Below are positions 1 to 57,447 of a stretch of 64,000 nt of DNA, one piece after another. The DNA lies in NCBI GenBank assembly GCA_973895155.1, contig OZ316895.1, forward strand, positions 18,299,880 through 18,363,879, given 5' to 3'. The position numbers were made by a program, and so were the translations under genes. Origin of the DNA: Marsupella aquatica (lineage: Eukaryota; Plantae; Marchantiophyta). Numbering within the stretch: position 1 is the first letter of the stretch; each line of letters begins with the position of its first letter. Below the pieces are notes generated by a model. That model saw only the letters and a list, made by a program, of their open reading frames with translations, did not search any database and had not been told where the DNA came from.

Positions 1-473
1 TGAGTACAAGTGAGAAGCGCTCCCTCAACATTGGTAGGCTGAACGTAAAACCTCATTCCAATCGAAGAATTGTATCCCATGCTACGGAAAGAGTCTTTTA
101 GCTTGTCGATGGAAGAACTGTCTTTCTATAGAGTTCGGACAACCTCCATATGCACCAATCGACATAGTGGAATTCGTGGAGGCTCTTTGTCAAACCCTCT
201 GAAATCCTTCCCAAATGACATGACATGTTTCGAAATAAGATCCGTCTCGGAAAACGAAACATCTTGAATCGCAAATGTGTCAAGATTCTCCATCTTCTTT
301 CTCGCTGGTTTGGCAAACGAAATACTTGAGATTGGAACAAGCGATGCGGTGGACCTCGTTACTCGACGCGTATACACTGAACCAGAGAATGAAGACTCAG
401 AAGACTCGCAATACCCACGATCCTGATCCCCAACCACACTATACACCCTCGACAAGGAGGGGATTGCATCCAT
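1..473 (-). CDS. 5' part of ParB-methyltransferase cargo gene M, copy B (runs off window start)
   Basis: ORF 126..473 (SSESSFSGSVYTRRVTRS...ISKHVMSFGKDFRGFDKEPPRIPLCRLVHMEVVRTL) is clearly homologous to 9052-9430 (SSQSSFSGSVYTHRVTRS...ISKHVLSFGRDFRGLGKEPPQIPLC*LIHMEVVRTL). Confidence 0.8.
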
Positions 474-1191
474 TGTCTTTACGATGAAAGGTGTATGAAC
501 GGAATCCTCACGACTGATTACCAGTTCTCTGTACCATATTAACAGTTGGGTCCGTATTATATCCTATCAATGAGCGTTATTCCCCTCTTTGTAATCGGTT
601 GGAGAGACGTTACTCATTGCGAATGACGAGATTCAATTTTATTTATCCGTGACAGAAAGCGACAATTTAGAAATTGCGATAAGTATTAATGTGAATTACG
701 CTAAAATGTTGTCGTGGTCATCATGCTAAACATTAGTTACCGTTAAATGTTACCGTTGTCTCAGCACCTTTCAGACAAACATGCAATGCCAACGTCGGGC
801 GCTAACGAATAAGAGACTACCAAATTCAAGAACTTATTGGTGAACAAATGCTAGCGCCCGGCGCTAGCCATTTGAATAATTTCATTAACATTCTTTTTTA
901 GTAACAGATATTGTCAACAAACTTCCAAATGTACCTGTTTCACCCGTAGTAACTAAACTTTACTTGATATTATGATATTAAGTATATTGTATCAATACTA
1001 GCGCCTGGCGCTAGTAACAATTTATTGTATTTGAGCTTAAAAATGTTTGTGATGCAATATTTTGAAAAAACATTGCATCAATATTTTGTGTGTGATTATG
1101 CTAGCGCCAGGCGCTAGTCACAAGACTTTTCAAATTATGTCATTGTTATTCCAATGGCTTTTAGGTAGCGCCCGACGCTAATGCAATGGAC

Positions 1192-1345
1192 GAGTATAAC
1201 CACCGTGACAGCAAATAGTAAATAGATTTGCTGTTATGAGCAAATTTTTTGCTCGTACGAGCAAAAATTTACTCATATGAGGCTTTCAATTACTCATAGC
1301 AGAAAATCTGTTTACTCATACGAGAAACTATTTACTTGTACAAGT
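1192..1345. repeat. T-side TIR and subterminal ~20-bp-period repeats (ctcgtacgag / ctcatatgag) of copy A
   Basis: The same array is found inverted at the T-side end of copy C (54185-54336 and 61679-61735). Confidence 0.75.
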
Positions 1346-2254
1346 TTTATAGGTTATTCAAAGTTCAAAAAAATGGCTCGATGTTAAAAAATAACAACCA
1401 TATAAGCGCTCTCTGAAATGCTAACATAATTGGGCCCACCATTCAATGATAATAAACGGGCAATATAAAGGTCATTATAAGAAGACGCGCTTTATTTAAC
1501 AATCAATATATTTGCTATCTGTTTCAAATTTTGGCTAGCGCCAGGCGCTACCAACAAACAACACATTTTTCTAGATAAGAAACGGGTACATCTTCTGCCC
1601 GTTAGAAAAGACAAATGCCACTTAAAGTTGTTGAACGGCACCAAATTGACTACATGTCCGTTCCATTTTGTCGATCAAGCAGGTAACGGACTTCGCCCAA
1701 TGTCATATCTGGTTGACTAGATAGTGTCGAATCGTGAAGACTCAACTTTAACACAGTCCTGAATACCCAATATAGATGTTTGCAAGGCATGTAAGGTTTC
1801 CTATAAATGTGCCTCCGATAGAAATCCTCACATGAACAGCAAGGGAAACAACAAATCTGCACCCAATAAGAGGCAGCATTCCTCTCATGTTCATGTGTTC
1901 TGATACAATACTGCTTCCCCCACGCATTCCCACTCGTGACATCTCTCTCGCATATGAGCCTCATTACTTCTGTTTTGGATGCTTCGATCTTCTTGTAAAG
2001 TGTTTGAGTTAGATTCACTCTCTGCAAGCACTTCCTTCCATTCTTGGAGCCACATTTGAAAATTGGGTCTGCTAAATTGATCCTCTCTTGGAACAAATTC
2101 ACATCGATGCGTAACTCAGATGGGGATGGCTCCTGACCTTCCCTTACCTCTCCTGTACCAAGTAGACCTTGTTCTCTCAAGAATTGGATCTCGCCCTCCT
2201 GGAGATTGGTCCCTCTCGCAATGGGAAGAACGGATGGTATATTGGGAATGTTTG

Positions 2255-4762
2255 TGTGACGCCGGTGACATGGTCCTTATTCAATAATACGATGGAATTG
2301 GTATGCTGTGCACAGTAAGTAACTGTGAGACTGTAGAACGATCAGCGAGATGGCAAGAATAAGGGCAATCATATGTCGCGGGTGGTCGGCGAACGTATCT
2401 CTTTCAATGTGTCGCCAAATCTGGATCTATAAAGAGCATTGGAAAGATCTGGTCAAGGCGAGTAAAATCGATATAAAACACTCGGGAAACGGAGGTGTAT
2501 TAAGAAAGATACGGCCTGGTTAGTGTGTCGGGTTAACTTATGGCCGGAATTAGCGGGTTTGGCTTCGGTTTCGGGTTAACCTAAGCTTGGCCACGGCTTA
2601 GCTTAGGTTAGCCTGACCTCGGGCCCGGGTTAGCATAGGTCAGCTCGGGTTTGGGCTCAGACTAGCGGCTAGCAGACTAGTGGCTAGCAGACTAGCAGAC
2701 TAGCGGCTAGCAGACTAGCAGACTAGCGGCTAGCAGACTAGCAGACTAGTGGCTAGCAGACTAGCGGATAGCAGACTAGCGGACTAGCATACTAGCGGAC
2801 TAGCGGCTACCAGACTAGTAGACTAGCGATAGCAGACTAGCAGACTAGCGGATAGCAGACTAGTGGCTAGCAGACTAGCGATAGCATACTAGCGGACTAG
2901 CAGACTAGCAGACTAGCGGGTAGCAGATTAGCCAGAGGCCACGGGTTAGCTCTACTCGGGCTAGATAGATAGCTTGGTTAGCCAAACTCGGGTTAGCTAT
3001 GTAACTCGGGTTAGCGCAACAGTGCGTACCCCCTCTCGGTTGCGGGGGCATAACTTTCTCTGTATTTGCCCAAATTGGCTATAATTGACCTCGTTGGAAA
3101 GAGGAGCTCAAGCCGCTTCCAACTCTGCTACCCACGCAGCAAATGGTTGAATAGAGAAATCGGGAGAGGAGGCGCAAGCTCGCGAAAACCATGGAGGAGG
3201 GCCAAATCCGAAGTACATAGTCAGTTTGAGATAGAAATAAAGTTGCGAGTTAGGGTTTAGTAGTTAGATATAGTGGCGGCTCTGTTAGGGCTAGGATGGG
3301 GCGCCAACAACGTAGCATCCACCCATTTGGGCTTAGTGTGAGAGTATATAGGGCAGCCCCCCGGTAGAGGCAGGGGGGGACTTCAGTTGTGTGATCTCAC
3401 GTAGACTGAGCATCAGGGAGGAGCTCTATGCAAGCAAGACTGGACTTGGACGTCGTGTGTTGGGGAGAGCTGGGTTGTGCTATTACTCAGGGAGTAATCA
3501 GCCAAGCTTCACAGCAACAGTTTGCCAGGTTTGCGAGCTGGATTGTGGCTCTTTCTAGTGGGCAGCACAACTGGGTTCTTTTCCCCCGATACATAGCCTT
3601 GGTGATAGGTGACGTATTGGTGATTGTAAACTGTGGGGAGGATTTTGATTGCATTTATGATGAGCATAGTAGGGAGGCTGAGACACTGATCGAGGTGTAG
3701 CAGGAGGAGCATTTACAGTTCAGTTTGGCAAGGCTACGTGATCCATGGGGAGTCCCGGCCTTTGTCTGGTAGAGAGCACTAAGGGATTTATGGCCAGAGC
3801 TGAGCTTGCATGGCAAGCATGAGGCTGGGCCTCATTGCAATCTGGGGTAGATCGCCGTTAGGCCTAGTACCAGCTTTGAAGTCGAGTCAACTATGCATGC
3901 GTAACTTGACATTCTGAAATGGAGGTGTGAGATCTGTATGTGCCCCCAAGAATGAAGTGCAGTGAAGGAGGTGGAGTTCAGGATTGAGTTTGCAAGGCAA
4001 GTACGGGATTGGTTCGAGTCCAATCTGCGGCCGCAATCTGGAGTGAGCCGGGCTTAGGTTCAGGATTGAGCTTGCATGGCAAGCACGGGGCTTGCGGGGC
4101 AAGCACGTCGCAATCTGGAGTAGACAACCTTCGGGACTATTGTTCGAATCAAGTGTTCTCAGTGAACTATTGTGCACATCGTTGAATCTAATTGAGTTTT
4201 CCTCTCAGGCCTCATTTCTCTCATGGATGTGTGTGTGTGTGTGAGGCAATCTGAGTGTATGATGGGACTAGCGGCGCCATTGAGAGGTGTACCGGGTGCA
4301 TTGAAGTGGGTTGGGTGAGGGCTGTCATAACTCTGATTGCTGGGAGTGGAATGGCAGAGTGGTGGGGCAATGGCTTAGAAGTCCCTAAGCCGGGAATCAG
4401 TCAGAGTCACTGGTTTATGGGTACATTCCGGCGGCGGAATAGAAACATACCTATGGCAGTAAGCATACGTATAGACATATGCGCACCGTAGCGCTAGGCC
4501 CTGTGTGTACGGGCCCGACATGAAGACCCCCTTCTCACCAGAACTATCATGAGTGCAAGAGCTGATTCCCAACCTTGGTCCTTGGGGATTGAGCTTGGGT
4601 GATGTGTGACAGAGTCTTGCTATGATAGTCTAGCGTTAAGGGGATAAACCGGTGTATACCAGCCTTCACAACATCCCTCCGTGATCCTCAGGTACAAGGA
4701 GATAGTTTTGGCACCCAATAGTGACAGCTTGGGTGTCAAGACCCAATGTCAACCGCTTGACA
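2255..4762. mobile_element. Solo LTR, family 1 (2.5 kb), inserted in transposase A
   Basis: Starts TGTGAC and ends ...TTGACA, with 5-bp TSD GTTTG (2250-2254 and 4763-4767). A close homolog lies inverted at 48843-51487. No gag/pol motifs seen. Confidence 0.85.
2659..2930. repeat. Minisatellite of 7-9 bp units (GCAGACTA / GCGGCTA / GCGGACTA) inside solo LTR
   Basis: Directly visible tandem array; largely absent from the second LTR copy. Confidence 0.9.
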
Positions 4763-7700
4763 GTTTGAAACACCTCTTCTTGGCCGACTTTTGTGACATT
4801 TGTTGTTTGGGCAAAACCATATCTGGTCTGGATGAGGTTCTCCTCTAAAAAGTCTACATCCTCTTACAGATATTGCGACAACTCCTTCTGGATTTGGAAA
4901 CCCAACCTTCTTTACTCAATTTCGACATTCATCGCGGCTTCCTCCTCCAACCGAGGGTCCCATTACAAGCTGGACCAGCACCGCGTTTTGTAGTTTGTCG
5001 GAGCTGCCAGAGACCTGGAGCTATGTCAGTTTCCATTGGGAGAAGAGATTCCTCAGGCGCGGCCTCAGCTTAATTTAGTAACTACAGTAATTCGCGACAA
5101 GTGTAGTTTGTATTTATGCAATATGGACTCTCTAATATATAAGTAGCGCCTGGCGCTATCAAATCTCTTGCATGACTGCCATGTTCGTAGTTGCAAAAGT
5201 GTGCTTGTTCATACTAGCGCTTGGCGCTACTATATTGTAACAAGGAATTGGAGTCAGAATAATCATTTTCCATATTAGCGTCGGGCGCTATTACAAATCA
5301 ATGGTAACGGACTATCATGAATCTAAGAAAATTCTTACCAGCCTAATGAAGTTTCCCATTGGCTCCAACGGACAACCCACCATGAGAGCCATCCTTGCAA
5401 CATTCAAAGCTTCCCCTGATGGCAATTTCCAGCTCTCCACCAATCGTCGATCTCTCTTGACATACGATCTGCGTCCAAAAATGTTTTTGCGTTACGAAGA
5501 CCGTCCCACATCTTCTTGTGTTCTTCAAGTTTTCCTTCTGGAACACCTTCGCGTGAATGCCGATGAAATGACTGATAAAAATGAAACGCATCCAATTGCT
5601 CTCGGTCAGTATCAGGTACCCCATTGAAGAAAACATTTCGCACCGCATTCCATCCAGCCTGGGTATTGTCCGCCATGAATCCTCGAATTTGAATGTTCTC
5701 TAGGCCATTTTCACTCGCAACTTCTATCATCAATCACCACGCTCTCTCTAAGGACTTGGTGTCTTCAGCCTTTAATTCACAAGTGAAAATTGTACAAAGC
5801 GCCTGATAGTGATGATCATATACATGAACACTAAAAGTTAGCCAGTCCGATGTAATTCTATGCATGACGTCGAAACTCACCCATGACCCTTCTAATGAAC
5901 CACCGGTCTGCATTTTCCGGAGAAGGTCGATCCCAGATCCTTCGCCTTTCACAGTCATCTTGAAGATGTGAGCACTTTCGTCTCGACATCCTTGGCCTGG
6001 AAGCAAATACCTATGAAGAAAGGGAAGTCTCACACACTTTTGCATCCACACCAAATATTCAAGCTCACCTTTGCCTTTCTGGTCTTGTCTCACACTTCGC
6101 AGAACAGAAGCAAACTTTTGTGGGGTAGCAACAACCATGAGGGACTCCCAGATCTCCTTCTCCTCTTCCGAAGACATTTCCTCCACGGATTCCTCACAGA
6201 GGGCATTGGTTAGAGAGTCTGTAGCCGCATTCTTTATCCCAGCGGGCGTAGCTCGTGGATTAGCCTGGAACTCCTTTGCGAGGTGAGTCTTAGCAACCTT
6301 TTCAGCCTCTCTCGACCACACTCGATGACTGGGATGGTTGTGAAATCCCATGTGCACAACCAGCCGGGACATATACGCCAAATGAGTTGAATCCACTTTG
6401 GCCGAAGGATACATATAGAACATCATGGCCGGACACGATGTTGTACACATCGAAGGTTCAGAGCAGTGGTGACAGACAATACCACCTTGCGGTATGAGTT
6501 CTCCAACTCAAAAGGTGCCTGATAGTTTTGGTGATCTCGCCCAGACTTGGTTGTTCCTAGTCTTTTTGTCTCTCCAGAATTGGCAAGAATTGTTCCGACA
6601 TTCAAGAGAACCGGTACACTGAACCTTTCCAAAATCCCACATCTTCTTTGGTAAAACATTCGAAGATGTCTTGACAATGCGCGTCCAGTAATAGCAATCC
6701 TTCCCGCGGTCCATGTCCTTCAGTCGTTCCCCTTTTGAATTCACGCAATCGACTGGAGGCAACTCAAACACAACATTCCCATTGTATGTCATCGAGAGGC
6801 TGGGAACTATCTGATGCATGAAATCCTTCTCCCTGATGAAACGAGATAACTCGCTATGTCCCTTCGATTTTAGGATAGTATCCATCGCACTTTGCCGATA
6901 TACAATTGGGACATCTTGAACCTCCATCTTCACCACCAAGGGATCCACTGAGATCCTTTTCGGGACATCAAAGGAAAGGGGCAAATTCTTCCCATCGTCT
7001 TCCGAAGTGTCAGACAGATTGACAACATCAACACCACTGGGAACAGGACATAGATCTTCCGATATTTCAGAATCTTCCAAAACAAAGACCTCGTATATTT
7101 TCTCCGGATACATCATCCAAAACCTGAGTCCATCGACGACATCATAGAAGATGGTATTTGCCTTTGAATCCTTAGGGAGGAGGGACACAGAGAGAATACA
7201 CTCTTTGGAAACATCAAATCTCAACCCCAAGTATTCATCTGAAACTCTCCTTGACTGAGATTCAGGGGATACAATAACCATGACGACATCCCGCGTGTCC
7301 TTGCGTCTCACTACGATCGATCATCCCATTTCAGCGGAAGATAATAATCGATGTCTCACTTCCCAATCGGTTTAAGGCTTGTTTGATGTACGAAGTTAAT
7401 AACGACAGTATAAACAAACATTGAATAATGACAAAGAAAGTTACGTTAATGGTTTGGACGATGTAAATCAATTGAATTTTGTCGTTATTCAACGGCTGTA
7501 TTGAACCAGCTTAATTGTTGGGAGTTTAATAGCGTAGGGACTACTTTTGTGAACGGGGAAAAATTTGACAATGGAAGCATGACTCTCGACCGAATACAGT
7601 ACCGCATGGCGAGGAGGACAGGGAAAACTCAGATTGTAATAATAGCGCTCGGCGCTATCATCAAAGCTTGTATGTTCTACCTCTAACAACAGACAGGAAA

Positions 7701-7973
7701 TCCGTGAATCGGTCCAAGTACGCACGTGTGCATTAAAGTTTCCACAATCGATGCATCTCGGACGTCAATTGCACGATCGGAAACCATTACATCTGAGACG
7801 TCCATGGAAATCCAAACGTTCTCATCTCTGTCCTCAAAACCTGGTCGGCGAGTCTGCCTCTCACCATTTGAAGTTCTTTGTTCTCATAAACATGTTTTGC
7901 GCTCCCGCGTCCATTTTTATACGAGAAACTTCCGTTCAGTCTCGATCGTTTAGAGTCGTTTGTTTAAGTTTCC

Positions 7974-8410
7974 ATGGCTCCACCACGAGCTAAGGGGAAG
8001 GCGCAGGTTATGTTTCGAAGCGACAGCGATGGAGAGGGCGCTGAGGAGAAGTCTCTCGCAAAGCCTCCTTCTCATTCGAACGTCCCGATCTCGGCAAAGG
8101 GGAAAGTAATTGCGAAAACCCGGGTTGTATCCGCACCAGATGGTGCTCCTCAGGCTAAAGCAGAAGTTCAACCCGTCGCGCAGAAATGTCGGGTGTGGAA
8201 GGCGGCTTATCTTCATCACACCCGTCACCTAGACATGGAAAACGTTCTTCAAGTGAAGGTGAGGATACAGACGATGATGCAGGGACCCATGATGAGTCGG
8301 GGTCCAACGACGACTCCTCTTGTAGTCGGGGTGGGTTTCGCTGGGGCGTTGGTTCTAGCGATTCCAACGATGATTCAGACGCGTACAAGCCAAGCTGGTG
8401 GGAAGATTAA
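7974..8410 (+). pseudogene. Small accessory gene X, copy A (basic N-terminus, acidic Ser/Asp tail, ends SDAYKPSWWED); one frameshift
   Basis: ORF 7974 (MAPPRAKGK..NVPISAKGKVIAKT) joins the frame of ORF 8186..8410. Both termini are conserved in copy C at 46216-46644 (minus). Confidence 0.65.
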
Positions 8411-9051
8411 CTGATCAACTGATCCTAGAGATTAACACATGGACCGTCTCATCCTGGAGAACCCAGTAACCCTAAGTAGATTACCAACCTCATTTGGTGG
8501 AGTTCGATGTTGACAGCCACGACCAGTTGATGCAGTGATGGTAGAAATGGTAGTCAATCTTTTGCCAACACGATAGTCTCAGAATCTATTGGGAGGTTAC
8601 TCTCATGTTTTTACTCAATATCTCGGAATCTATTGGGAGGTTACTCTCATGTTTTTACTCAATATTTCGAGACTTTGTGAAGTAAAGCCGATACCATTAA
8701 ATGGAGTTTGAATCTATTAGCCATCCCTTACGCATTTTTCATTATTCAGTTTATTTTTCAATGTTTTGCCTTATAGGAATGAGTAAATCTTTTCACCAAA
8801 TGTCTTTTGAAAGTCTTCATAATGCTTGTAGTTTTCGATGGAGTGGTCTTACCCGTGACAGGTTCCATATTAGCGCTCGGCGCTAGCATTGGAATGCTCA
8901 AACTTATGCTTCTAATACCAGATGGATTCTTAAATATTTGTGGATATGTAAGAGTTTGTATTACTCTCTCATGATGAGTAACATCGATTCGGATGCGATT
9001 TATGATAGCACCGAGCGCTAATAACGCTTACGCCGACTCGGACAGAGTTGT

Positions 9052-12000
9052 ATGATACTGTCCGACGTTCTGCTCAATGCCATCGCCATCTCTCAGTGGG
9101 GTAATACGAGGATGGGAGATAGTCATGCCGGTCATTCCGAGTCCTCACAATCCTCTTTTTCAGGTTCTGTGTACACCCATCGCGTGACTCGGTCCGCTGT
9201 GTCTCATTCACATTCAGATATTGGCTCAACTCTTCCGACTGCGCGATCAAGAAGGGGGAGAATGGACACGACTGAGGAAGTTGCTCGAGTTGATTTCGGT
9301 GTTGCTGGACTTTCAATGGACGATTACATTTCCAAGCATGTCTTGTCCTTTGGGAGAGATTTCAGAGGATTGGGGAAGGAGCCTCCACAAATTCCTCTAT
9401 GTTGATTGATTCATATGGAAGTGGTGCGGACATTGCAGAAGCAGAGCGCTTCCATCGACAAATTGAAGGAGTCATTCCGGATTTCTAGATACAATTCACG
9501 CATGGGCATGCCATTTTATGTACAGCCAACGAATGCGGATGGGGTTCCACAGATTTGCACTAATGAGATTAGAGCCTCTTGGGACCCAATCTGGGTTGCC
9601 GAGAATGACAAGTTTGAGGAAGAGTGTGACGCTGATCCTGATTTCAGAGTTTTGAAGGACAAGATGTTTTGTGTCTTCGATGGAAATCACCGTTTGTATT
9701 CGTGGTCGATTGTGACAGCAGAGAATCCGGACAACATTAAGTACCACCCTCGTGTGACTTGCATTGTTTTCAATGGAGATAAAGGTTCCCTCGTGGAGCT
9801 CGAGCTGCCATACGCTGTCAACCAGTAAGCCATTCCTCAGGACAACCTCATTTAATATGACGTACTAGTTCAAGATGGATTTTGGATGTGATATTATCTT
9901 TGGTGTTTTACTAGCGCCCGGCGCTGCTAATTTACAATTAAATTTTGACGTAGGTTGGGACAAGCTGTGGTTGAGCCGTCTTGGATTCTTGATGCCAACA
10001 GAATCTCTTGTCTTTTATCCCATGACGTAGAGCACTACAAACCCCTAATTGATGCTACGAGTTATGCTAAGTTTGAAGCCATTCGAAAGAAGACTTGAAA
10101 GGGTTCTTGGTATACACACAAGATGCCACAAGACGCGCTCATCTACATTTTGTGTGAGAACAAGATTAAATCTTACACAAACCAGTTCAAAGTGGACATG
10201 GATTTTGCGGCCGCCCAGGGGACTCCGTGGTCCGAAGAGGAGACGCATAAGTGGCATGAAGCTATGATGAAGGAAGCGACAAAAGACTGGGCTATCAAAG
10301 TAACAAAGATCACTCCATTGCTGCACCTTGATTTTGGTGACTACTTGGCTACATGTGCCGAAATGTTTCCCGTCACAGAGAAGAACAAAAGAGAAAAAAA
10401 GCCCGATACAGTTGTTTGCACTATGGACCATGCTCGTCTGTTTACTGCAGTTACTTATCTGGATCCGAAGTTAAGGTGTACCCTTCTCGTTGCCCATTGC
10501 ACTCCGGAGATTCAGAAACAGTTCTTTCATCCGGCTAGTGTGAACGATGATCCTGTAAAACAATGGTACCATACCTGGCATATCTGGAATTCAGTGGAGG
10601 AAATTGCTACTGGATTGATCCTCACCTTGCTCGAGCAGGTGTTGGATTGCATGCAAGATGATCGTCTTGTCAAGTCTGGGTGTGAGTCCCTGGATGTTCT
10701 CATGAAGTCCATTATCAAAGAATTCAAATCATTTGGAGACCTTGTCAAGGCTAAATTTTTCAACATAATGTGGCCATCAAAGTATGCAGACAAGGAGGAC
10801 TACACTGAGCGGAACCGGAAACGAGCCAAGCGATACGTTTACCATTTCTACATGTGGATGGAGTTGCGATCTCCTGAGGTTTTGTGGGCTTACCCTGGTG
10901 CATTTCAAAAGTGGGTGATTATCAAAGATGGTGACCACCTTGTTGATCTGTATTCGATGTACCCAGCTGAGGGAAAGTTCCCACCTCGCGCCTTGTCAGA
11001 GTGGGAGAGACTCCACTGCCCATGGTATCTTGACACTGACAAATGGGATCTGCCTTTCGATGAGGTGGAGAAAGACGCTTTCATGAAGTTACAGAAGTCG
11101 CAAATCCCAGCAAGGTACATATCGGAGATGAAGCAGGGTCTTGCGATTGAAGTGGATGCTTTGACAACTGAACTGCAGAAGAAATGCAAGACAGTCGTCG
11201 TGCATGTTGACCGGAGCCGAAAGCCAAGAGTGAAGGCCAAGAATAAATCTGCAGCTCCCAGTGAATCAACTTGATCGCTTAAAAAACGTAAGTTTGCCTC
11301 TTAGGATTCAGTAAAGTATTCCCGCTCTTGTTTGTATGACATATTTTCCCCCAATTGATACTATTACGCCAAGCGCTATTATGAGAACTAGTTCTGTTGA
11401 GTACCGTCTCTCCGTCTTTCAAGGGGAAGGAAGTCGGATGCTATCGGTGATGTAAAAGAGGACGCTACTCCTCAGGCCTCTGAAGCTAACACTAGTGCGG
11501 AAAATACACCAGATCAGGGAACCCCTGGGGAGAGTGGAAAGGCAGTGGTTCCAGTGGACGCGACAAGTATGAAGAAGAAGAAAAAGAGAGGAACACTTGA
11601 GGATAGGCTTGGATCTTTGTCCCGAGATTCAGTTGCGTCTACTGGATTGCAAAGAGATGTGGGGAATTTCAAACAAAAGTGTACTCGACATTGTTTTGTG
11701 GAGTCGAGTGTTACAGAATGTTTTGATTCCCTGTTTAACAAGGGAGAAAAGCCGGACTGGGTTTCTAATATTGAAGGTTGGGGGAAGAGCTGGTGAAGTC
11801 TGGGGATCGAGCAAAAGGGGTTGTCCGAGGGGGAAAAGAAAGAGCTTTTGGAGTTGATGCTGGTTTCATATATCTTCCAACTGGGTTGAAACCAACACTT
11901 GTGGATAGGAAGGTTCCTAAATGGAACCTTCAAGATTATACGATTCCAAGTGCCTTTTTCAGAACAATGGATCCTTTCCTAGCAGATGATGGATTGCTAG

Positions 12001-13317
12001 CGATTTTGCACAGAGGCGACTATGACCAAGTTTCCGAGGTCATTGCAGCTTGTCAATTTTCACAGAAATTCCAGTGTATCTCGACACACAATGTTTTCAT
12101 GGGCACTCCAATGTACAGGCCTCGCTCGGATATGCAGGTATGTATAGTAGCGCCTGGCGCTATTCCAAAGTTTCTGTTTGGTGTCCTCCTTTGGAGATTG
12201 ACGGCGACGCTAGCACCAGGCGCTAGTGTGGAATATCCTCTTCGTGAAATGTTTCCGTATTCTCGACGTAGCATCTGATGTTTATTATGAACAAAACGTT
12301 ATTCGATGTGCAGATTTTTACGCTCACTCTCAATGTTTTTGGGCGTGTTTCGTCCAAAGGTAGGGCCCCTAAGGATCCCAAATTTGGGCCTCTTTCACAT
12401 ACAGAGGATCCTTCAATAACCAATCTCATTGGTTTTCCCGTGCCAAAAAATGATCCTCTGCCGGAGCTTGCGTTTGCCGGGAATTCAAGGCTGCCTGTGG
12501 GTTTCATGCAGTCCGTTTTAGAATTAATTACCCTCCCTGGGGATATTGTCATAGACTGGACTGTTGGGGCCGGAAGTACATTTGTTGCTGGAGATCATTG
12601 TGGGAGGTTTGTAGTTGGGATTGAAAATCGTAAAGAGTTTCTTGACATTGCCACAAAATTTTTCTTTGGACTTCTCGAGAATAAAGAGGCCTCCACGTCC
12701 ATGCCTCCGCACCGGCAGGTGGGGAGTAAGAAGCAGGACAGACTCCGTGTTGTTCTTAATTTTGATTCTGACGAGGACAATGATGGAGGCAATGGTACGC
12801 AACAGTCCAAAGATGATGGGGCCTCCAAGAAAGTGGTGAACCTCGAGTCTTCTGAATCTGAGGATAGTGAAGAGTCTTCTGAGTAATGATCTTCAGCTTC
12901 CCTGTCTTTTTTTTCTTTTTAAGTGTGACGTTAGTGTCTCCAACATTCCACCATTTTCCCGGACCCGACTAAAAATATCGGATTCAACTTTCCAGGTCTG
13001 AGTGGAATCTTTTGAAGGGCTTTCAACTACGGAGGAAAGTCGCTAGGAATGCAATAGAAACCCCGGAGAAGCCGTTTGTCTTGCCTTCTTATGCAGAAAA
13101 GGCGGCTCAAAAAGCAGATTCTGTGAGAATGCTGACTTGGGAAAGCAAAGGCCTGAGGCTCAAAAGGGGCTCTGATAGAAAGTTTATGAAGAATCGCTAT
13201 GTCGATGACATCGTCCCGAGCAAGTATGTAGACGATGAAGCTGAGTCTACTGATAGATCACAAAGTAGTGAAGAAGAATCAGAACTAGATTCGACTAATT
13301 CAAAATCTGATGGCTAG
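9052..13317 (+). pseudogene. Cargo gene M, copy A: ParB/Srx-like domain + helical region + N6/N4 DNA methyltransferase-like domain; five exons, several stops/frameshifts
   Basis: MFCVFDGNHRLYSW (~9665-9705); FLADDGLLAILH; RLPVGFMQSVLELITLPGDIVIDWTVGAGSTFVAGDHCGRFVVGIE (~12488-12625). GT-AG introns at ~9825-9953, 11288-11423, 12138-12313 and 12883-12995. In-frame TGA at 9403 and 11272. Confidence 0.82.
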
Positions 13318-13782
13318 CCAGACTTTAAAACTATATTTTGGGGATATAGATATTGGCTATTTTACAAAATAGCGCTTGGCGCTATTGTGAACACATGTAA
13401 TATTGATGGGTGTTTATAAAGTGAGACTGACTGTCCACATTGTTTTTTGACTAAACTTTCCTCTGTGAAGCGGACAATCTTAACTTGGGATGTATTACAA
13501 TTGGGTGTTTACCCTAAAGTTGATCTCTATTTTTAAGTCTGTTATTGAGGTCTGTATACTAGCGTCGGGCGCTAGTATACATATGTTTTTGGGGATACTT
13601 TTGCAAATGGATGTTTCGAATGAGGTTTCGGGTATTTTGGACTGTTTCAGGACTGTAGCGCTGGGCGCTAGTATTACGATGTGTTTCAAAATGATGGATT
13701 TTAGAGGTTTCGATCTCATTTTATGAGAGATGTCAGATTAGGGAAGATTTTTTTGGTGCAGACATTTGCTGCTATGAGCTTT

Positions 13783-13838
13783 ACTGTTTGTTGTTTGTTG
13801 TTTGTTGTTTGCTGTTTGCTGTCACTGTGAAAAGCCTC
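13783..13838. repeat. M-side subterminal 7-bp repeats (tgtttgt/tgtttgc) and TIR of copy A
   Basis: The same structure occurs at 21266-21342 (copy D) and inverted at 24180-24245 (copy C). Confidence 0.75.
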
Positions 13839-14096
13839 CAATGGACGCACTTGTATAGACTACTATCTAGTCGTATTCATGTAATAAATATTCCTGACAC
13901 CCGCACTTGACGGGAAAAAAGGACAAATGTATCATTTATGATTTCAACGGACGCAAAGTTGTGCGTGTTCTCTGTTGTATTGAAATGTCTCTTTTAACGG
14001 CCGGTGGTCCTTGAAGGGGTGTTATAAGCACAAGCAATACGGTTGGGATTGGGCTATTGCATGAAATACCTCTGGCCTAAACTTCATTCATCTACA

Positions 14097-17000
14097 ATGT
14101 CGCGCTCAATTGTTATTACACGTGCTTGTACCGGGGAAGTCGTCAAAGTTCCCGTGCAAGTTTTTGATACTTACAGGCAAGTAAGCGAGAACTACCTGTG
14201 CGGGAGATTCGATTTGAGAATCAATGACATTGAGTCGATTGTTCCTGATGAGTCATCGAGTGGAGGACTTGAACGTGCAGCAGTATTTGATGTGGATGAC
14301 AGAATACGTTTCTGGCACATGAATGTCGGACTTCGTTACACGCTTCATGTCAGACCTACTCCCTTTGAATCGGTTGTTCAGGAAATTCCGCCCTAGGTTG
14401 TTGAGATATCTAAGAGTGAAGATGAGGAAGTTGCACCCAATCCTCCTGAGAAGCACAAAGCTCCAGGTCTAGTTGCCTTAAGAGTGAACCGGTGGCCACT
14501 TCCGGAGATGTCCAGAAGGTTTACCGGCGGAGTGCAATGGACGCCTTACTCAAGGCCACTGGCCATAGTGAATTGTCAAGATTTATCTCGGCAGGGGACT
14601 TCCAACATGATCAAGTTCCTTGTTTGCCAAACAAGTACAACGGAAATATTGTATTTGAATTGCCTCCCATTGTGGGTGTGCAGTCCAAAGGATCTAGACT
14701 TCGTGACATGGACCGTGCCAAAGATTGTTACATTTGGACCAGGATTTTTCCGACGACCGCAAACGTGCAACCAAAGAAACACTGGGAGTTTGGTAAAGTC
14801 AGTTGTACTGGGTTGGTCGAGTGCAGGAACAAGTCCCGTGAGTATTTTTTGCGAAAGAAGAGATGCAATTCGAAAGCGTGGGCTGGTACCCCTAAGCTTA
14901 GTGGCCAGCATGTGGTGGGTTTGTTCATTGAAGAGGGTGGTATAGTATGTCACGACTGTGAACAGATTCATTTTTGTGTGGACTCTTGCCCTGCTCGTTT
15001 GTTCTATATGTATCCACAGGTCCTACTTGATACAGAAACCTATAGTCACATGTCTCGGCTCGCAGTTCATATAGGTGAACATAACCATCCGAGTAGAAAA
15101 GTTTTCTCGAGGAGTGCTGAAAAGATGGCCGAGGACTTAATAAAAAGAAATCATGAAGCCAATCCTCTTGCAAAACCGGCTGGGATTTTGAATTTGGCGA
15201 CTGGTTCGCTTGTGAAAGCTCTTTGCGAGAACGTTGATGACATCGTAGATATTGAAGAAACCAAAATTTGGAAGTCTCTCATGGTTCTATCTACTCCTCA
15301 GAAATTTGCATCCCTTTGTTGCAGCGTTCGAATGGACCAGGCTGGTCGTGGTGAGTTAGATTTCCTAGCTCGAATGCAAAGGTCAAATAATATTTCTTTC
15401 CTCCAAAGGTATCTTCTTCCGGGTCAGGGTTGTTTAGCAGATCGTCCCCACATATTCAAAATGTCAGTCAAGGGTCATGGATCTGGTGTAGATCTTCTAC
15501 GGCAGATGCAACCTGGCGGAAGACTGGAAGGGGCTTGGGTGAGTTTTGATGTCATGAAGCGAGTGACAACCGACTGGTTTACTTTTAGCGCACACGTTTA
15601 TGATCACAACTTTTGAGCTCTTTGTACAATATTCACATGCGAACTAAAAGCTGAAGACACAGAGTCCTTTGAGAAGGCATGGAGAATTATGATAGAGGTT
15701 TGTAAGGAAAATGGGTTACATGAGGTTACCATTCAAGGTTTTATGGCCGACAATGCTCAGGCTGGATGGATTGCCGTTCGCAATGTCTTTTTTGGGGGTC
15801 ACCTAGACCCTGAATGTGAACGCTCCGATGCATTCCACTTTTACCAGTCTTTCCATCGACATTCCACGGAGGGAGTACTCGAGGGTAGGCAACCTGAACA
15901 TCTAAGATTGTGGGAGAAATTGCGAAATGCTCCATCGTTCGTTGCGGCGTACCGAGTTTCTAGGGAGATTGTGTTATGGTGGCAAGCAGGCAACTGTGTT
16001 CCAGGAAAACTGATGATGTTGCAGAGTTGGATATCATGGTGGGTCGTTCGATGGCGTCAGTGGGGGAATTTCATTCGCGTGGTAAGTTTTATCAATGCGT
16101 ACAATAGTCACTTCTCCATGTTTTTATACTAGCGCCTGGCGCTGCTTTAAACTGTACAGATGCCAACATTATATTATTATATCATACACAATGCTAGCAC
16201 CTGGCGTTGCTTTAAATTGTACAGAGAACTTTGCCACATTCATGACTTATGAACACTTGATAATACCAACATTATATTAATGTATATTATATACATTGCT
16301 AGCGCCTGGCGCTGCTTAAACAAATTGACTAAAGTTGGTCTGGATCCACTTGATTGCAGAGCAAAAGCGCAGAAGAAGGTGCCCTCATTCCAAACTGTAC
16401 AGGTTCTGAGTCAAGGCACGCTTCAATGAAAGCATGGGCAACCAAAAAAATGGTGGGCCTCTTCGAAGCATGCGAAGTTGATCAAAATTGGGCTATATCT
16501 CAAGTTGCAGGTTACAGTGCATATCGGAAAGGACTCAATAGAGGGAAGGGGCCAACTATCTGGGAATTGGCATTCCGTTTGGCAGACCAAGCAGGTTCAC
16601 CCAAGTTATTCAAAGAAGCCACTAACATGATTCTTTCCAACTCTGCCGATTTTGATCTGGGTAGGAATTCTCCTCTAAATGGAGATATTGTCACCAAATC
16701 GGTTAAGAGGAAGGGACTTGCAACTGGGATTGTCTCGCCACAAGACTCCCATCGGCATGACACCATTCTCATCACTACCCCAAATACTCGAGGATTCAAA
16801 CGGAAGAATCTCAACAAGACTGAGTTCACTTCCATTCCCACCAATGTAGTAGATCCAATAGTAGATCCTGTAGTAGACCTCTGCGGGAGTGACACTTCAA
16901 CAAGTGAAAGCGATTCCCTTGCGAACACCCCTGAAGCCACGAGGGAAACAACATCATCTCAACCACCAGGGAGTGCCCCCGCTGTGCTTCAACGTTTGCC

Positions 17001-17898
17001 GACAGAATCAGCTCCTTTGGAAATGGACGTTCTAAGAGGAAGCTGGCATTTGAGACGGACAGCCAAATATGGGGCAGGGCCACAGTGTAATGGGACCTTG
17101 CATGGAAATTCTGACAGAGATGAGTGTCGAAATCGTGTCAAGAAAGTAGGGTTCCATTTTGCTGTCGGTGTTGTCGGCATTGTTGTCAATGGACATCGCA
17201 TTTTCAGAGGAACTCCCATTGCCAAAATGATATGGTTCTGCCCAAATAGCACATGCTACAAGAGCCGCCCGCGTCGTGGTGTTGAATGCCTTCCTCCTGT
17301 GCCGGACATCCTGCCAGTTGTGAAAGGAACAAACCTCTCGCCTGGCGAGATAGAGTACCTTCAAGTGCAGGGAGTCTCTATGGTCCAAATAGATGCGACC
17401 TCTCGAACTTGAACTGCACCATTTGCATTCGACTTGAGAATCAATGTTAACACATTTCCAGAGAAAATCAATTTTGTGGAGCCCAACGTGCGTCTTTGTA
17501 GCAGGAATGGGAGGAACTCCAGACCTCGCTCTAATCTAACTATGGCTCACAGTAAATGAATGGAGTCGGCTCGAAAAGAAGCTATGACTCTAGATGGAGA
17601 GTGGGATGTGATTAGTGGAATTGCTTTTGGGAAACAATTCAGAATACGGACTCACGAGAACCTTCGATCCCCAAACACTTACTGTGTCCAAATGTGCATC
17701 TTCCCTACTTGTTCCTGTGAGGATTTCTTCCGTCGTCATTCCCGCGGCAAGCCGTATATGCCCTGTAAACATTTGTACTGGGTGTTCATAAATGTCTTCA
17801 AGTTTCATGTAGAGGAGTCTACCCTGTGTAGCCAGCCGATTTTGACAGTTGGAGAAGTCAGACTTGTGTTGGAGAGGCACAACGCAAATGGTTTATAG
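14097..17898 (+). pseudogene. Transposase T, copy B (all domains present; stops/frameshifts)
   Basis: ORFs 14492..15616, 15689..16132, 16354..17412 and 17560..17898 carry SFDVMKR, GFMADNAQAGW, DAFHFYQ, CTGSESRHASMK (putative third catalytic E) and SWIM CSCEDF..PCKHLYWV. Intron 16082-16359. Confidence 0.87.
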
Positions 17899-18619
17899 AG
17901 GGACTCGATTTATCCTTAACTGTCGTATTCCATAACGGATACTATGTTGTTTTGTCTTTAGTCAACGGATATTACTTTAGTTTTTTATGTGGTTTTGGTT
18001 AGCGTCGGGCGCTGGTCAATAACTTATTTATAAAAAATTTGTTTTATCTGGTTAGTGCCATTGGATGGTCCCATAAGCTTTTATTATCGTCCCATTATTC
18101 TGCGTACTTAATCCTTTGTTAGCGCCTAGCGCTAGTTTCACACTCTGCCTGACAGACCCCTATGTTTCCGATAACATAATTCAGTCTACAACTGGCTTTG
18201 TGGTGGGTCTCGCCTGAGCATACTCCATTCCTCCATGGGTATTATGGTTAGGCTTTTTTTAACCACACTAATGAAGTATATGAACTAAATGAAGCATTTA
18301 AAAGTGGACTGTTTAGAAATGTTGTTGTATATAAACAGCAATGAATTGAATGACAACCCTTTTTTATCTATAATCTGAGCAAGTGACAAGGGATTAGAAC
18401 CTCTCCGAGCAACTGTGAGCACACCTTTCCCTTATATCTGACGTCGTGTCTTATGCCAATAGGAATATTTTTAGCTTAAGTATGTGGTTGTTCCTTACGT
18501 GAATTTTTGAAAAACTTTGCCAAATAGTACACCTTTACAATAACAATTTCTTGTTACCAGGAGAAATTACCTGGTAACAGGAAAACTGTTTCCTGTTTCC
18601 TGTCTCCACTGCTATACCC

Positions 18620-21009
18620 CTCTCACTTAGCATCTGGATCATCATTAGCTCAAACCTTTCCACCACGTTCATTGTCGGAGTGGGAGAGACTTCATTGTCC
18701 GTGGTACCTCGACACAGACAAATGGGATTTACCGTTCGACGAAGCTGAGAAGGATGCCTTCATGAAGTTGCAGAAGTCCCAGATCCTTGCCAACTATGTG
18801 TCTACAATGAAGCAAGGTCTCCAGTCTGATGTTGACGAATTTGCATCTGAGTTACAGAAGAATTGTGAGTCTCGTGTCATGCACGTTGACCGAAGCCGTA
18901 AGCCAAGAGCAAAGGCGAAGAATGAGTCAGCTGCACCAAGTGACTCCACAAGGTCCTTCAAGAAAAGTGAGTAGTCTAAGCGCTTTTTGGTTACTTGTTG
19001 GCGCTGCTTATGCGGGAGTTTCATTTGGAAATTCCTTTGATTAATAGCGTCTGGCGCTAGTCTGAAAGGTTGGACTCATGCAAGTTTCTATGCCTAACAG
19101 GAGGTCGAAAGTCCGACATGGAGGTCCAGGCTGTTGAAGGGAAGAATGATGCAACTCCTCAAGCATCGGAGGCAAACATTGGAGCTCAACAAACCCCGGA
19201 TCAAGGGACCCCGGATGGTGCTGGAAAATCCATTGTCCCTGTTGATGCAACTAGCACAAAGAAAAAGAAAAAAAAGGCGTCGGTGAGGACAGAGCAGCAT
19301 CATCTACTCGAGACGTTATTTCCTATGGACTCCAGAGAGATGTCGGGAATTTTAAGCAAAGGTGTTCTAGACACTGTTTTTTGGAGTCCAATTTAAACGA
19401 ATTTTACGATTTGGTATTTAACAAGGGGATGAAGCCTATGTGGGTTACTAAAGTTGAGGCCTGGGGAAAGGAATTGGTAAAGTCAGGAGACAGAGAGAAG
19501 GGAGTAATGCGTGGCGGAAAAGAGAGGGGCTTTGGTGTGGATGTTGGTTTCATCTACATTCCCACTGGATTAAAACCAACACTTCTTGATCGGAAGGTTC
19601 CCAAGTGGAACCTTCAGGATTACACTATTCCCAGCTCTTTCTTCCAAGCGATGGAGCCGTTCCTGGCAGACGATGGCCTACTTGCAATTTTACACAGAGG
19701 AGACTATGATCAGGTATCTGAAGTGATTGCGGTTTGCCAGGATTCTAAGTGTTTCCAGTATATTTCAACCCACAATGTGGTCATGACTACACCAATGTAT
19801 AGACCCCGATCTGATACTCAGGTAACAATTCCTCTTGCACATACTAGCGCCTGATGCTACTATTAGCATTCGCTATATCTACAATTCACTTATCTTTTGT
19901 AAGGATGAAGGGTTGACTAGCGCCAAGCGCTAATATATATGTGTCTGTTTTCTTATACTGCCTTCATTGGGAAACTGTGTTGCAGATATTCACACTTACT
20001 CTTAATATATTTTGCCGCATTTTGACAAAGGGAAGGGTCCTGAAAGACCCCAAGTTCCGGCCACTATCGAATGCAGAAGACCCTTCCGTCACTAACATTA
20101 TTGGGTTATCGTTGCCGCGACATGACCCAACTCCTGAGCTCCAATTTGCAGGAAATTCACGCTTGCCTGTGGGTTTCATGCAAATTATTTTGGAATTGGT
20201 GACTCTTCCTAGAGATATCGTTATGGAGTGGACAGTAGGTTCCGGTAGTACGTTTGTGGCTGGAGATTATTCTGGTCGCTTTGTTGTTGGGCTGGAAAAT
20301 CGGCCAGAGTTTGTTGATACTTCCGGTAAGGTCTTCCTCGATCTTTTACAGAACAAAGAAGTGGTTGCACCAACTCTTCCTAAGAAGATTCCTGGAAGTA
20401 AGAAGCAGGACAGGCTCCGTGCTATTCTAAATTTTGATTCGGAAGACGAGGATGAGGGTGGCAATGCTTCTCAGCAATCTAAAGATGATGAGGTGTCGAA
20501 GAATGTGGTGGACCTTGGATCTGGTGATGAGGACAGTGACAAGTCAGAAGAGTAATGTTCTTTAGCTTTCTTTCTCTCATTACAGTATACTTTTTTCCAA
20601 AGAACTCCTATACTCCCTTTTGTCTAGAAAATTCGCCCGATTTCCCGACTTCGACTAAAGAACTCCAGTTCAAATTCTCAGGTCAGAGTGGAATCTTTGG
20701 AGGTGTTTTCAACTTTGAAGGAACGTCTCTAGGAACGTTGTACAGACCCCGGAGAAACCATTTGTTCTCCCCTCTTATGCTGAAAAGGCGACACGACGAG
20801 CAGATTCAGTCAGGACGCTTACTTGGGAGAGTAACCTGGGTCTTAGACTCAGAAGAGGCTCAGATAGAAAGTTTGTGCAAAATCACTTCGTAGATGATAT
20901 TGCAAAATCCAAGTATGTGGATGACGAAGCAGAGTCCACTGATAGATCAGAAAGTAGCGGTTTCAAATCGGGCTCAGAGTCAAGTGGTGGTTGTGGATCT
21001 GGTCTTTAG
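18620..21009 (+). pseudogene. 3' half of cargo gene M, copy D (methyltransferase-like part)
   Basis: FPPRSLSEWERLHCPWYLDTDKW; VDVGFIYIPTG; RLPVGFMQIILELVTLPRDIVMEWTVGSGSTFVAGDYSGRFVVGLE. Intron positions match copy A. Confidence 0.85.
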
Positions 21010-21342
21010 TTTTCCTTGTTTTATTTACCCGTTTGTGGAGAACGACGACACTAAATAAGAACGCCGCGACGTGTCGGATTAGAGTAGCGCCCGGCGCTAC
21101 TACTGTAGCCGGTAGTTCAAAGAGGTTTTTATTCGGATGTTTTCCTTATAGCGCTCGGCGCTAGTATAAATGTACTCAATGGCCGCTTCATGTCCAATAT
21201 ATGTGACAATATTTTCTTATCATTCGGTGTCTTTTTTGGGGTGCACATTTGCTGGTATGAGTTTTGTTGTTTACTGTTTACTGTTTATTGTTTGTTGTTT
21301 GTTGTTTGCTATTTGCTATTTGCTGTCACGGAGAGATCCCCC
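18620..21342. mobile_element. M-side remnant of Mutator-like copy D, interrupted by copy B
   Basis: M coding sequence begins directly after the end of copy B and terminates ...tttgctgtcacggagagatccccc (TIR) at 21342. Confidence 0.7.
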
Positions 21343-27057: not shown

Positions 27058-27363
27058 TATCCGCTGCCTATCAATAGACTCCAATGGTAACAATATCCGC
27101 GATACACACCTTTTTGGCTAACGCCCAACGCTACTCAGAAAAATTGGCTAACGCCTGGCGCTATCCAATATAGGTCCCAAGAAATCCCTCCCAGTCTAGG
27201 TCAAAATAATCCAATGATTTTCTCTATAGAGATTCAAGATTCAATAGAACTTGAACCTCACCAATGACACAAATAAACCGAGAACATAGTATTTATTATA
27301 TGTGGATTCTTGAAATTGGTTTACAATGAATTGTATAACAAATGTGCATGCTGGAAACTATTT

Positions 27364-57374: not shown

Positions 57375-57447
57375 ATTGTATGCTGAGCTTGTGAAGGCGG
57401 GCTGCATCAGCAAGGGTATATTCATTGATGAGTGGGAGCCAGGTGAA

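What the first reader, a model, noticed from the sequence alone, without database searches (positions are those of the whole stretch)
1192..13838. Mutator-like transposon family carrying a ParB-methyltransferase gene plus its own array of palindromic sites: candidate self-marking/anti-silencing system
Seen: a TIR/TSD-bounded ~10 kb unit (excluding the LTR) with divergent transposase and ParB-MTase-like genes, a small third gene, and a 15-bp palindrome in most introns and spacers. The layout recurs in four diverged copies. Established: Arabidopsis VANDAL Mutator elements encode VANC, which binds short motifs accumulated in their own non-coding DNA and counters silencing; ParB proteins load at palindromic parS sites; ParB-MTase fusions are typical of phages and prokaryotic mobile elements. 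Inference: M recognises or spreads from the palindromes and marks or shields the element's DNA. I do not know of a described plant MULE with this cargo, but cannot exclude prior reports.
Basis: partly seen in the sequence, partly recalled or inferred. Interest (0 to 1): 0.92.

Follow-up and report, generated by a model that had tools for sequence, protein, structure and literature searches.

The report
Transposon with disarmed methylase and palindromes
A 10-kb jumping DNA element, likely from a liverwort, carries a likely transposase gene, a bacterial-type DNA-methylase gene that lacks the usual catalytic motif, and 14 copies of one symmetric 15-letter signal in its introns and spacers; the methylase-like protein likely binds those signals and likely helps the element escape silencing.

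Summary
Window 1192-13838 is one insertion: 8-bp target duplication, and the empty site appears in contigs of 4 of 4 runs laid. It holds a Mutator-like transposase gene (T), a divergent five-exon gene (M, about 1,200 aa) and a small ORF. Of 47 near-matches to TAGCGCCnGGCGCTA in 64 kb, 46 lie in family DNA and none in an exon. Five copies have diverged to near or full synonymous saturation, yet keep M (57-84% identity) and the motif in otherwise unalignable introns, so both are under selection. M's C-terminal domain has a bacterial beta-class amino-methyltransferase fold, but the catalytic DPPY reads YLPT/YIPT here, and 13 of 13 family sequences lack the aromatic residue: self-marking by methylation is unlikely. 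The ParB label is only weakly supported. Relatives occur in the liverworts Riccia and Calypogeia; T-M linkage outside this genome is not shown. Best reading: M is a pseudo-methylase that binds the dyads and works like VANC; binding and function are untested. This copy is decayed. No description found in ten literature searches; Repbase and Dfam could not be checked.

The parts
1184..1191 (+). left target-site duplication (8 bp)
   Evidence: empty site
1192..1345 (+). left TIR (about 24-34 bp) plus subterminal array of a separate 10-bp palindrome CTCGTACGAG (4 copies); candidate transposase sites
1536..1550 (.). 15-bp palindrome, 3' of T
1650..5071 (-). T exon 2 remnant with C-terminal SWIM-type CxC...CxH; first about 210 codons (with the likely catalytic E) deleted at 5071/5072; split by the LTR-like insert
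   Evidence: Pfam SWIM only E=0.19 on copy 2
2255..4762 (+). later insertion, solo-LTR-like (TG...CA ends, 5-bp duplication, high depth); not part of the family
5083..5340 (-). T intron with three palindromes (5144, 5215, 5276)
5341..7329 (-). T exon 1: Cys/His cluster (GCM-like by recall), D (WVSFDVM), D (GFMADN), DxxH; four TGA stops
7643..7657 (.). 15-bp palindrome, T-S spacer
7974..8410 (+). small gene S (about 145 aa, frameshifted here); also in copy 4, conserved C-terminal end; no family hit
8871..9020 (.). two palindromes (8871, 9006) upstream of M
9112..9824 (+). M exon 1 (predicted): ParB-like region with DGNHR
9912..9926 (.). palindrome in M intron 1
9954..11287 (+). M exon 2 (predicted): about 440-aa middle region, no family hit; its 3' part resembles the start of Riccia protein P0135 (by eye)
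11364..11378 (.). palindrome (3 mismatches) in M intron 2
11424..12137 (+). M exon 3 (predicted): basic linker and N-half of the methyltransferase fold with motif IV position YLPT; frameshift near 11784
12148..12225 (.). two palindromes (12148, 12211) in M intron 3
12314..12882 (+). M exon 4 (predicted): C-half of the fold with motif I (DWTVGAG) and acidic tail; reads to a stop at 12884-12886 if unspliced
   Evidence: Pfam N6_N4_Mtase E=5e-8
12996..13317 (+). conserved coding segment U, most likely M exon 5; exact acceptor uncertain
13370..13670 (.). three palindromes (13370, 13560, 13656) 3' of M
13760..13838 (-). right TIR with 7-bp subterminal repeats
13839..13846 (+). right target-site duplication
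1..18619 (-). copy 2 (host of the element): M 5' part at 1-563 (minus), spacer with 5 palindromes, T at 14096-17898 (plus), TIR ending 18619
18620..21342 (+). copy 3: M 3' half, U, 5 palindromes, right TIR
24180..28990 (-). copy 5: TIR, 6 palindromes, U and M 3' half
43401..61735 (-). copy 4: palindromes, S (46644>46216), T (47429-53893, plus), TIR at 61735 beyond a LINE insertion

Best explanation
This is a decayed copy of a Mutator-like DNA transposon family, likely of a liverwort, whose second gene M encodes a bacterial-type methyltransferase fold without the canonical catalytic motif; M likely acts as a sequence-specific DNA-binding dimer on the 15-bp palindromes in the element's introns and spacers and likely keeps the element transcribed and under-methylated, as VANC does. 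Shown: unit insertion, gene layout, non-coding motif array, purifying selection on M, persistence of the motif, fold, loss of DPPY. Inferred: the transposase uses the TIRs and the separate subterminal 10-bp repeats; M dimers sit on the dyads, with neighbours on one helix face; occupancy or recruitment of a host factor limits cytosine methylation; the ParB-like N-terminus may add oligomerisation or spreading (weakest step).
For: Unit insertion with T and M inside one TIR pair. M under strong purifying selection: pS 0.68-0.92 against pN 0.09-0.29; the N-half of the fold is the most conserved part, 84%. Motif only in family non-coding DNA (46 of 47) and kept in introns that, with it masked, align no better than shuffles in 6 of 7 pairs (z -1.6 to 1.4; one at 3.0). 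No flank co-variation, but fixed symmetric flank preferences (R at 43 of 46, Y at 46 of 46), as for a protein-bound dyad rather than a hairpin. CpG intact in 81 of 92 half-sites. Neighbour spacings phased to 10.5 bp (n=23, Rayleigh p=0.009, post hoc). A different subterminal palindrome changes between subfamilies while the 15-mer does not. Fold: CcrM E=3e-13, Z=19.1, rmsd 3.8 over 213 (on Calypogeia homologue P0004); plant-only profile aligns (D/Y)LPT on DPPY. Synonymous CpG retention at codon boundaries 0.56 against 0.28 (LINE, p=2e-4) and 0.24 (CACTA, p=2e-5). Precedent: VANC binds motifs in introns and spacers (PMC5735166, passages); beta-class enzymes are usually homodimers (PMC10406627, passages).
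Against: No binding, expression or methylation data. CpG retention is mixed: NCG codons do not differ from the LINE (0.60 vs 0.54, p=0.62), and this copy has 9 of 10 listed premature stops as TGA, the mark of CpG decay. VANC motifs differ between families (PMC5735166), whereas this motif is the same across subfamilies, which also fits a host factor. No DNA-binding domain was identified in M's first 700 aa; ParB support is weak (PHROG E=0.1, hhalign probability 1-11%, rank 2 of 501 against shuffles). The 6 Riccia M-like and 2 T-like locus tags seen are not adjacent. A Mutator transposase alone can bind and de-silence cognate copies, though at TIRs (bioRxiv 10.64898/2026.08.24.746577, section 7).
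Confidence: 0.45

Rival explanations
1. M binds the palindromes, but as a structural helper of transposition: dimers on phased sites bridge or compact the 10-kb element, or steer insertion into or beside other family copies, rather than acting on silencing.
For: ParB-like region; helical phasing; this element sits 3 bp from a palindrome of copy 2 and five copies are packed in 64 kb; mudrB is a second Mutator ORF apparently needed for integration (PMC6446971, passage).
Against: One insertion site beside a motif is anecdotal; other ends abut a satellite or M coding DNA; clustering is common in repeat-dense regions.
Confidence: 0.2
2. M is an active methyltransferase with an unusual active site and writes 4mC or 6mA in or near the palindrome (self-marking, the first reader's idea).
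For: Whole fold, motif I and the acidic SAM-contact position are kept; the motif IV region is the best conserved part; 6 of 13 family sequences keep D (4 from one cluster); eukaryotic variants of this motif are described (PMC4738411, passages); a liverwort has a working 4mC enzyme (10.1101/2021.02.12.428880, passages).
Against: 13 of 13 lack the aromatic fourth residue, and the three window subfamilies have Y in place of D/N/S.
Confidence: 0.12
3. The transposase T (its Cys/His N-terminal domain) binds the 15-mers; M has another role.
For: AtMu1 transposase binds motifs and de-silences cognate copies (bioRxiv 10.64898/2026.08.24.746577, section 7); T is always co-inherited here.
Against: That binding is at TIRs; here the 15-mers avoid the TIRs and a separate subterminal repeat family exists that varies with the subfamily.
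Confidence: 0.11
4. The palindrome is the site of a host transcription or chromatin factor that the family exploits, independent of M.
For: Motif unchanged across subfamilies whose T and M differ by 15-45%.
Against: Zero matches at <=2 mismatches in about 34 kb of LINE, CACTA, satellite and LTR-like DNA of the window; a 14-base symmetric site is long for a host factor (general knowledge). No host genes were available to test.
Confidence: 0.09
5. The palindromes act as RNA or single-strand DNA hairpins.
For: Six-pair stem with a three-base loop is possible; many sit in introns.
Against: No compensatory changes; flank pairing at chance level for offsets 1-6; the would-be loop shows only C>T/G>A changes; many copies are outside transcribed introns; no Rfam match.
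Confidence: 0.03

Closest known systems
Arabidopsis VANDAL elements with VANC (PMC5735166)
   Same: Mutator-type element with an accessory gene and short motifs accumulated in introns, spacers and ends; one 64-bp tandem repeat carries the motif three times.
   Different: M has a methyltransferase fold; motif is a 15-bp dyad, mostly dispersed, and constant across deeply diverged subfamilies; TIRs present; function untested.
Phage/prophage ParB-methyltransferase fusions (ParB-Terminase loci, PMC4738411; examples L002, L006, L008, L014, L016, L017)
   Same: N-terminal DGxHR region followed by a beta-class amino-methyltransferase; DW in motif I.
   Different: Those keep DPPY and are about 480 aa; M is about 1,200 aa, has introns, a 440-aa middle region and lacks DPPY; the plant-type proteins form one side of a long branch (100/100) with no specific bacterial sister.
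DIRS1 retrotransposon MTase domains (PMC4738411)
   Same: Transposon-borne, likely inactive adenine methyltransferase domain.
   Different: Different methyltransferase group, part of a retro-element polyprotein, no DNA motif array described in the passages read.
Fungal TET/JBP-carrying DNA transposons and SET-carrying MuDR/HarbingerS (PMC12730594)
   Same: DNA transposons carrying a gene for an epigenetic modifier.
   Different: Different enzymes, proposed to be active; no cognate palindrome array in the passages read.
Marchantia MpDN4MT1 and rotifer N4CMT
   Same: Bacterial-derived beta-class amino-methyltransferase fold in a eukaryote (8s9m Z=17.1).
   Different: They keep SPPY and are active host genes; kinship of M to MpDN4MT1 was not tested.

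Membership tests
Mutator/MULE superfamily | 8-11 bp target-site duplication | tested here: met
   8 bp, with empty site in 4 of 4 runs; range from PMC6446971
Mutator/MULE superfamily | Terminal inverted repeats | tested here: met
   Short, imperfect (18 of 24); similar ends at five other places
Mutator/MULE superfamily | DDE domain with C/DxxH recognisable as MULE | tested here: inconclusive
   D, D, DxxH conserved in homologues, E candidate in copies 2 and 4; no Pfam MULE hit in 10 of 10; hhalign to four IS256 proteins aligns the second-D region only, P=0.02, probability 2%
Mutator/MULE superfamily | Zinc finger (SWIM C-terminal; WRKY/GCM/FLYWCH-type N-terminal) | tested here: inconclusive
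   CxC...CxH present, Pfam SWIM E=0.19 below cut-off; N-terminal Cys/His cluster conserved; GCM label is recalled, no Pfam hit
Mutator/MULE superfamily | Placement in a MULE transposase phylogeny | not tested
   No eukaryotic MULE reference set was fetched
Beta-class N6A/N4C DNA methyltransferases | Fold and motif order IV before I | tested here: met
   Model pLDDT 77, CcrM E=3e-13, Z=19.1; profile hit E=3e-8
Beta-class N6A/N4C DNA methyltransferases | Motif I SAM-binding loop | tested here: met
   DWxxGxG and following acidic position nearly invariant in 30 sequences; altered in copy 5
Beta-class N6A/N4C DNA methyltransferases | Catalytic motif IV (D/N/S)PP(Y/F/W) | tested here: not met
   YLPT, YIPT, YLPT, FLPN x2, CLPN, ALPT, DPPT, DLPS x4, DIPE: 0 of 13 canonical
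Beta-class N6A/N4C DNA methyltransferases | Methyl transfer activity | not testable with these tools
   Needs an assay
ParB/parS systems | ParB/Srx N-terminal domain | tested here: inconclusive
   DGNHR motif; PHROG ParB-like E=0.1; Atlas neighbours include clusters with ParB_N in 11% of members and DUF6551; no Pfam or NCBIfam hit; single-sequence model unusable, pLDDT 31
ParB/parS systems | HTH domain that reads the palindrome | tested here: inconclusive
   No family or Atlas hit for exon 2
ParB/parS systems | ParA ATPase partner | tested here: not met
   Only T, S and M lie between the TIRs
ParB/parS systems | CTP-dependent loading and spreading | not testable with these tools
   Needs biochemistry
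VANDAL/VANC anti-silencing systems | Accessory gene plus motif enriched in the element's non-coding DNA | tested here: met
VANDAL/VANC anti-silencing systems | Accessory protein homologous to VANC | not tested
   No VANC sequence compared directly; M's recognisable domain is a methyltransferase fold and Pfam gave no other hit
VANDAL/VANC anti-silencing systems | Motif diverges between subfamilies | tested here: not met
   Same consensus in all five copies
VANDAL/VANC anti-silencing systems | Protein binds motif and lowers methylation | not testable with these tools
   Only an indirect, mixed CpG-retention signal

The most novel reading that the evidence does not exclude
A liverwort transposon lineage took a phage-type ParB-methyltransferase fusion together with its logic: M loads at a parS-like array inside the element and spreads or bridges over the whole 10 kb, using the disarmed (or rewired) methyltransferase fold to read or shield DNA. 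That would be a parS/ParB-style self-recognition system running in a plant nucleus, and a portable 15-bp address for local de-silencing.
Probability: 0.2. Interest if true: 0.92.

Novelty: new variant of a known kind. Interest (0 to 1): 0.74.

Why it matters
Few transposon counter-silencing systems are known, nearly all from flowering plants and fungi. This one names both a candidate protein and its exact target (a rare 15-bp dyad), so it can be tested directly in a transformable liverwort. It would show a bacterial or phage DNA methylase recycled as a non-catalytic reader by a plant transposon, in the lineage where a related fold became the sperm 4mC enzyme, and could give a compact tool to protect transgenes from silencing.

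Tried and rejected
No whole genome is held, so no genome-wide copy survey. No RNA holder listed; splicing is predicted only. Long-protein homologue searches with M exon 2 and P0018 found nothing (weak evidence). Viral contigs: no M relative; 85 exact motif matches, and 1 of the 80 loci returned had a second near-match, so no array seen. Metagenome scan: 13 loci, 1 plant-type (L010, 1.3 kb, no motif, too short to test linkage), the rest prokaryote-like or spurious. GTDB scan: 4 loci, all bacterial methylases. tblastn of the ParB-like region against phages and of T against plasmids: nothing significant. PDB sequence searches with P0135, P0160 and the T alignment: nothing significant. Single-sequence fold of the ParB-like region failed. 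Homodimer prediction of the methyltransferase fold: no answer, not evidence either way. Variant density in palindromes among close copies, 1 of 45 against 27 of 214 positions, p=0.06, biased by contig ends: not counted. Hairpin role rejected. U as an independent gene disfavoured: no start codon in copies 1 and 3, conserved splice signals, fused in P0100 and P0120; but 12935-12995 is also conserved between copies 1 and 3, so the acceptor may differ. hAT and KDZ/Zisupton were considered for the 8-bp duplication and set aside on motif layout from recall, not by a test. Earlier scan findings: none returned.


Full report
1. The observation. The unit runs from 1192 to 13838. CAATGGAC flanks both ends, and contigs of all four public runs laid join 1184 to 13840 with eight shared letters (3, 2, 1 and 2 contigs; two organism labels, two studies). 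So T, S and M were inserted as one piece. The ends share 18 of their first 24 bases, and similar ends stand at 18619, 21342, 24180 and 61735. A 2.5-kb LTR-like insert (2255-4762, 5-bp duplication) came later; its empty site is also seen.

2. The palindrome. TAGCGCCnGGCGCTA has 41 matches at up to two mismatches, against none in 100 shuffles. At up to three mismatches there are 47; 46 lie in family DNA and none in a predicted exon, although exons are 18.4 of 29.4 kb of that DNA (family and exon bounds drawn by me). This element has 14. LINE, CACTA, satellite and LTR-like DNA of the window have none at two mismatches (identities). Flanks do not co-vary, but prefer W-W-T-R-N on each side: the pattern of a duplex site for a symmetric protein. 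Nearly all changes are C>T or G>A, and the CpG survives in 81 of 92 half-sites. Of 23 neighbour spacings up to 250 bp, 8 are 61-65 bp, and the set is phased to 10.5 bp (Rayleigh p=0.009; jitter test p=0.001, 0.012 after collapsing the 61-65 group; noticed post hoc, copies not independent).

3. T. Exon 1 holds a Cys/His cluster, D, D and DxxH; exon 2 holds the likely E and a SWIM-type finger. Nine homologues at 33-62% identity were found, two named as Riccia sorocarpa. No Pfam transposase model hits; comparison with four IS256 proteins aligns the second-D region weakly. Mutator-like is therefore the best label from the 8-bp duplication, motif layout and SWIM, not a proven membership. In this copy about 210 codons of exon 2 are missing; contigs in all four runs continue differently at 5071, and those with loose ends at 5072 read into the intact exon start.

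4. M. Five exons with GT-AG borders give about 1,217 codons; the model is predicted, with no RNA. The last segment (U) is coding (dN/dS 0.13) and is probably exon 5: donor and acceptor recur in three copies and Riccia P0100 and P0120 carry a similar sequence after the methylase domain. A search of 1.84 billion representatives with exon 4 gave 130 hits, roughly 50 plant-type by a crude filter; among 30 proteins looked up, the named eukaryotic ones were Calypogeia fissa (3) and Riccia sorocarpa (3, plus 3 cluster members). The host is thus likely a liverwort. A model of homologue P0004 matches beta-class amino-methyltransferases (CcrM E=3e-13; Z=19.1, rmsd 3.8, 213 aligned). A plant-only profile hits CcrM at E=3e-8 and puts the family's xLPT on DPPY. 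None of 13 family sequences that cover the site has the canonical motif, while motif I is kept. The seven plant-type rows in a 21-row tree form one side of a long branch (100/100), with no bacterial sister resolved. The N-terminus has DGNHR and weak ParB-like signals; its fold could not be modelled.

5. Selection. Between copies synonymous sites are at or near saturation (pS 0.68-0.97), while proteins stay 56-84% identical for T and M; the half of the fold with the altered motif is the most conserved. Introns with the palindromes masked align no better than shuffles in 6 of 7 pairs. M and the motif have therefore both been kept through a long history of the family. M is not a passively captured fragment.

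6. Mechanism. A symmetric site, kept only in non-coding DNA of the family, calls for a dimeric binder. T has its own candidate sites: the TIRs and a 10-bp subterminal palindrome found 4 times in this copy and 8 times in copy 4, replaced by another sequence in copy 2. M is the other large element-encoded protein, and beta-class folds usually work as homodimers on DNA (PMC10406627). The anatomy matches VANC, which binds motifs in introns, spacers and ends and lowers methylation across the element (PMC5735166). One indirect sign agrees: synonymous CpG retention at codon boundaries is about twice that of the neighbouring LINE and CACTA genes, though the LINE inserted into copy 4 and is younger here; a second CpG measure does not separate the family from the LINE, and this copy has itself decayed by CpG loss. 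I put M-binds-and-counters-silencing at 0.45, a structural role in transposition at 0.2, active self-marking at 0.12, T as binder at 0.11, a host factor at 0.09.

7. What is not shown. Binding, expression, activity; ParB identity; linkage of M, T and motif in any other species (the 6 M-like and 2 T-like Riccia locus tags seen are not neighbours).

8. Literature. Ten full-text searches listed no paper whose title, abstract start or passages read describe this family. Read as passages: PMC4738411, 10.1101/2021.02.12.428880, PMC5735166, PMC6446971, PMC5225508, PMC12730594, PMC10406627, 10.1101/2021.12.13.472469; abstract and section 7 of 10.64898/2026.08.24.746577. Others were seen as listings only. 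No supplements were read; those of PMC4738411 and PMC6446971, Repbase Reports, Dfam and subscription journals could hold a prior mention. GCM, hAT and KDZ motif patterns and parS properties are recalled.

9. Verdict. Real, well-bounded and apparently undescribed; a new variant of Mutator elements with an accessory regulator, with a bacterial pseudo-methylase in the VANC seat. Interest 0.74.

Noticed in passing
window 21342 and 61735: The right end of copy 3 and the left end of copy 4 abut the same phase of a ~580-bp satellite and share the same 8-9 bp flank in inverted orientation; they may be two halves of one insertion split by an inversion whose left break is the TIR of copy 2 (18619), or two insertions at one satellite site.
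   Followed up: partly
window 1166-1191: The element inserted 3 bp from a palindrome in the T-M spacer of copy 2; three of four flanks seen share a central TGG. Too few sites to claim targeting.
   Followed up: partly
window 2255-4762 and 48843-51487: The same LTR-like family (91% identical) inserted independently into T of copies 1 and 4, in the same orientation relative to T; summed contig depth is tens of times that of the transposon.
   Followed up: partly
window 47109-47255: A 64-bp tandem repeat carries the palindrome three times, a visible route for motif multiplication.
   Followed up: partly
window 54330-61680: Near-full LINE inserted in the subterminal repeats of copy 4 with a 17-bp target duplication.
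   Followed up: partly
window 26455-27050: A ~600-bp strongly self-complementary insert (MITE-like, arms 26558-26941) inside copy 5.
   Followed up: no
window 32400-41100: CACTA/EnSpm-type element (Transposase_21, DUF4218, DUF4216, Transposase_24) with two inverted arrays of a 24-bp repeat at 39838-40016 and 40862-40992.
   Followed up: partly
window 21343-23900 and 61738-62728: ~580-bp satellite with strong CpG depletion, followed by an 83-bp repeat.
   Followed up: no
window 7974-8410 and 46216-46644: Small gene S keeps a conserved acidic C-terminus ending WWED in two copies but was not detected in copy 2; no family match.
   Followed up: partly
window 9406-9825: Atlas neighbours of the ParB-like region include a fungal cluster with DUF3723 in 31% of members; DUF3723 is a conserved cargo gene of Starship transposons (10.1101/2021.12.13.472469). 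A lead only.
   Followed up: partly
L010:527-1207: A metagenome contig encodes a distant plant-type M relative (motif DIPE) with an intron at the same place as M intron 3.
   Followed up: partly
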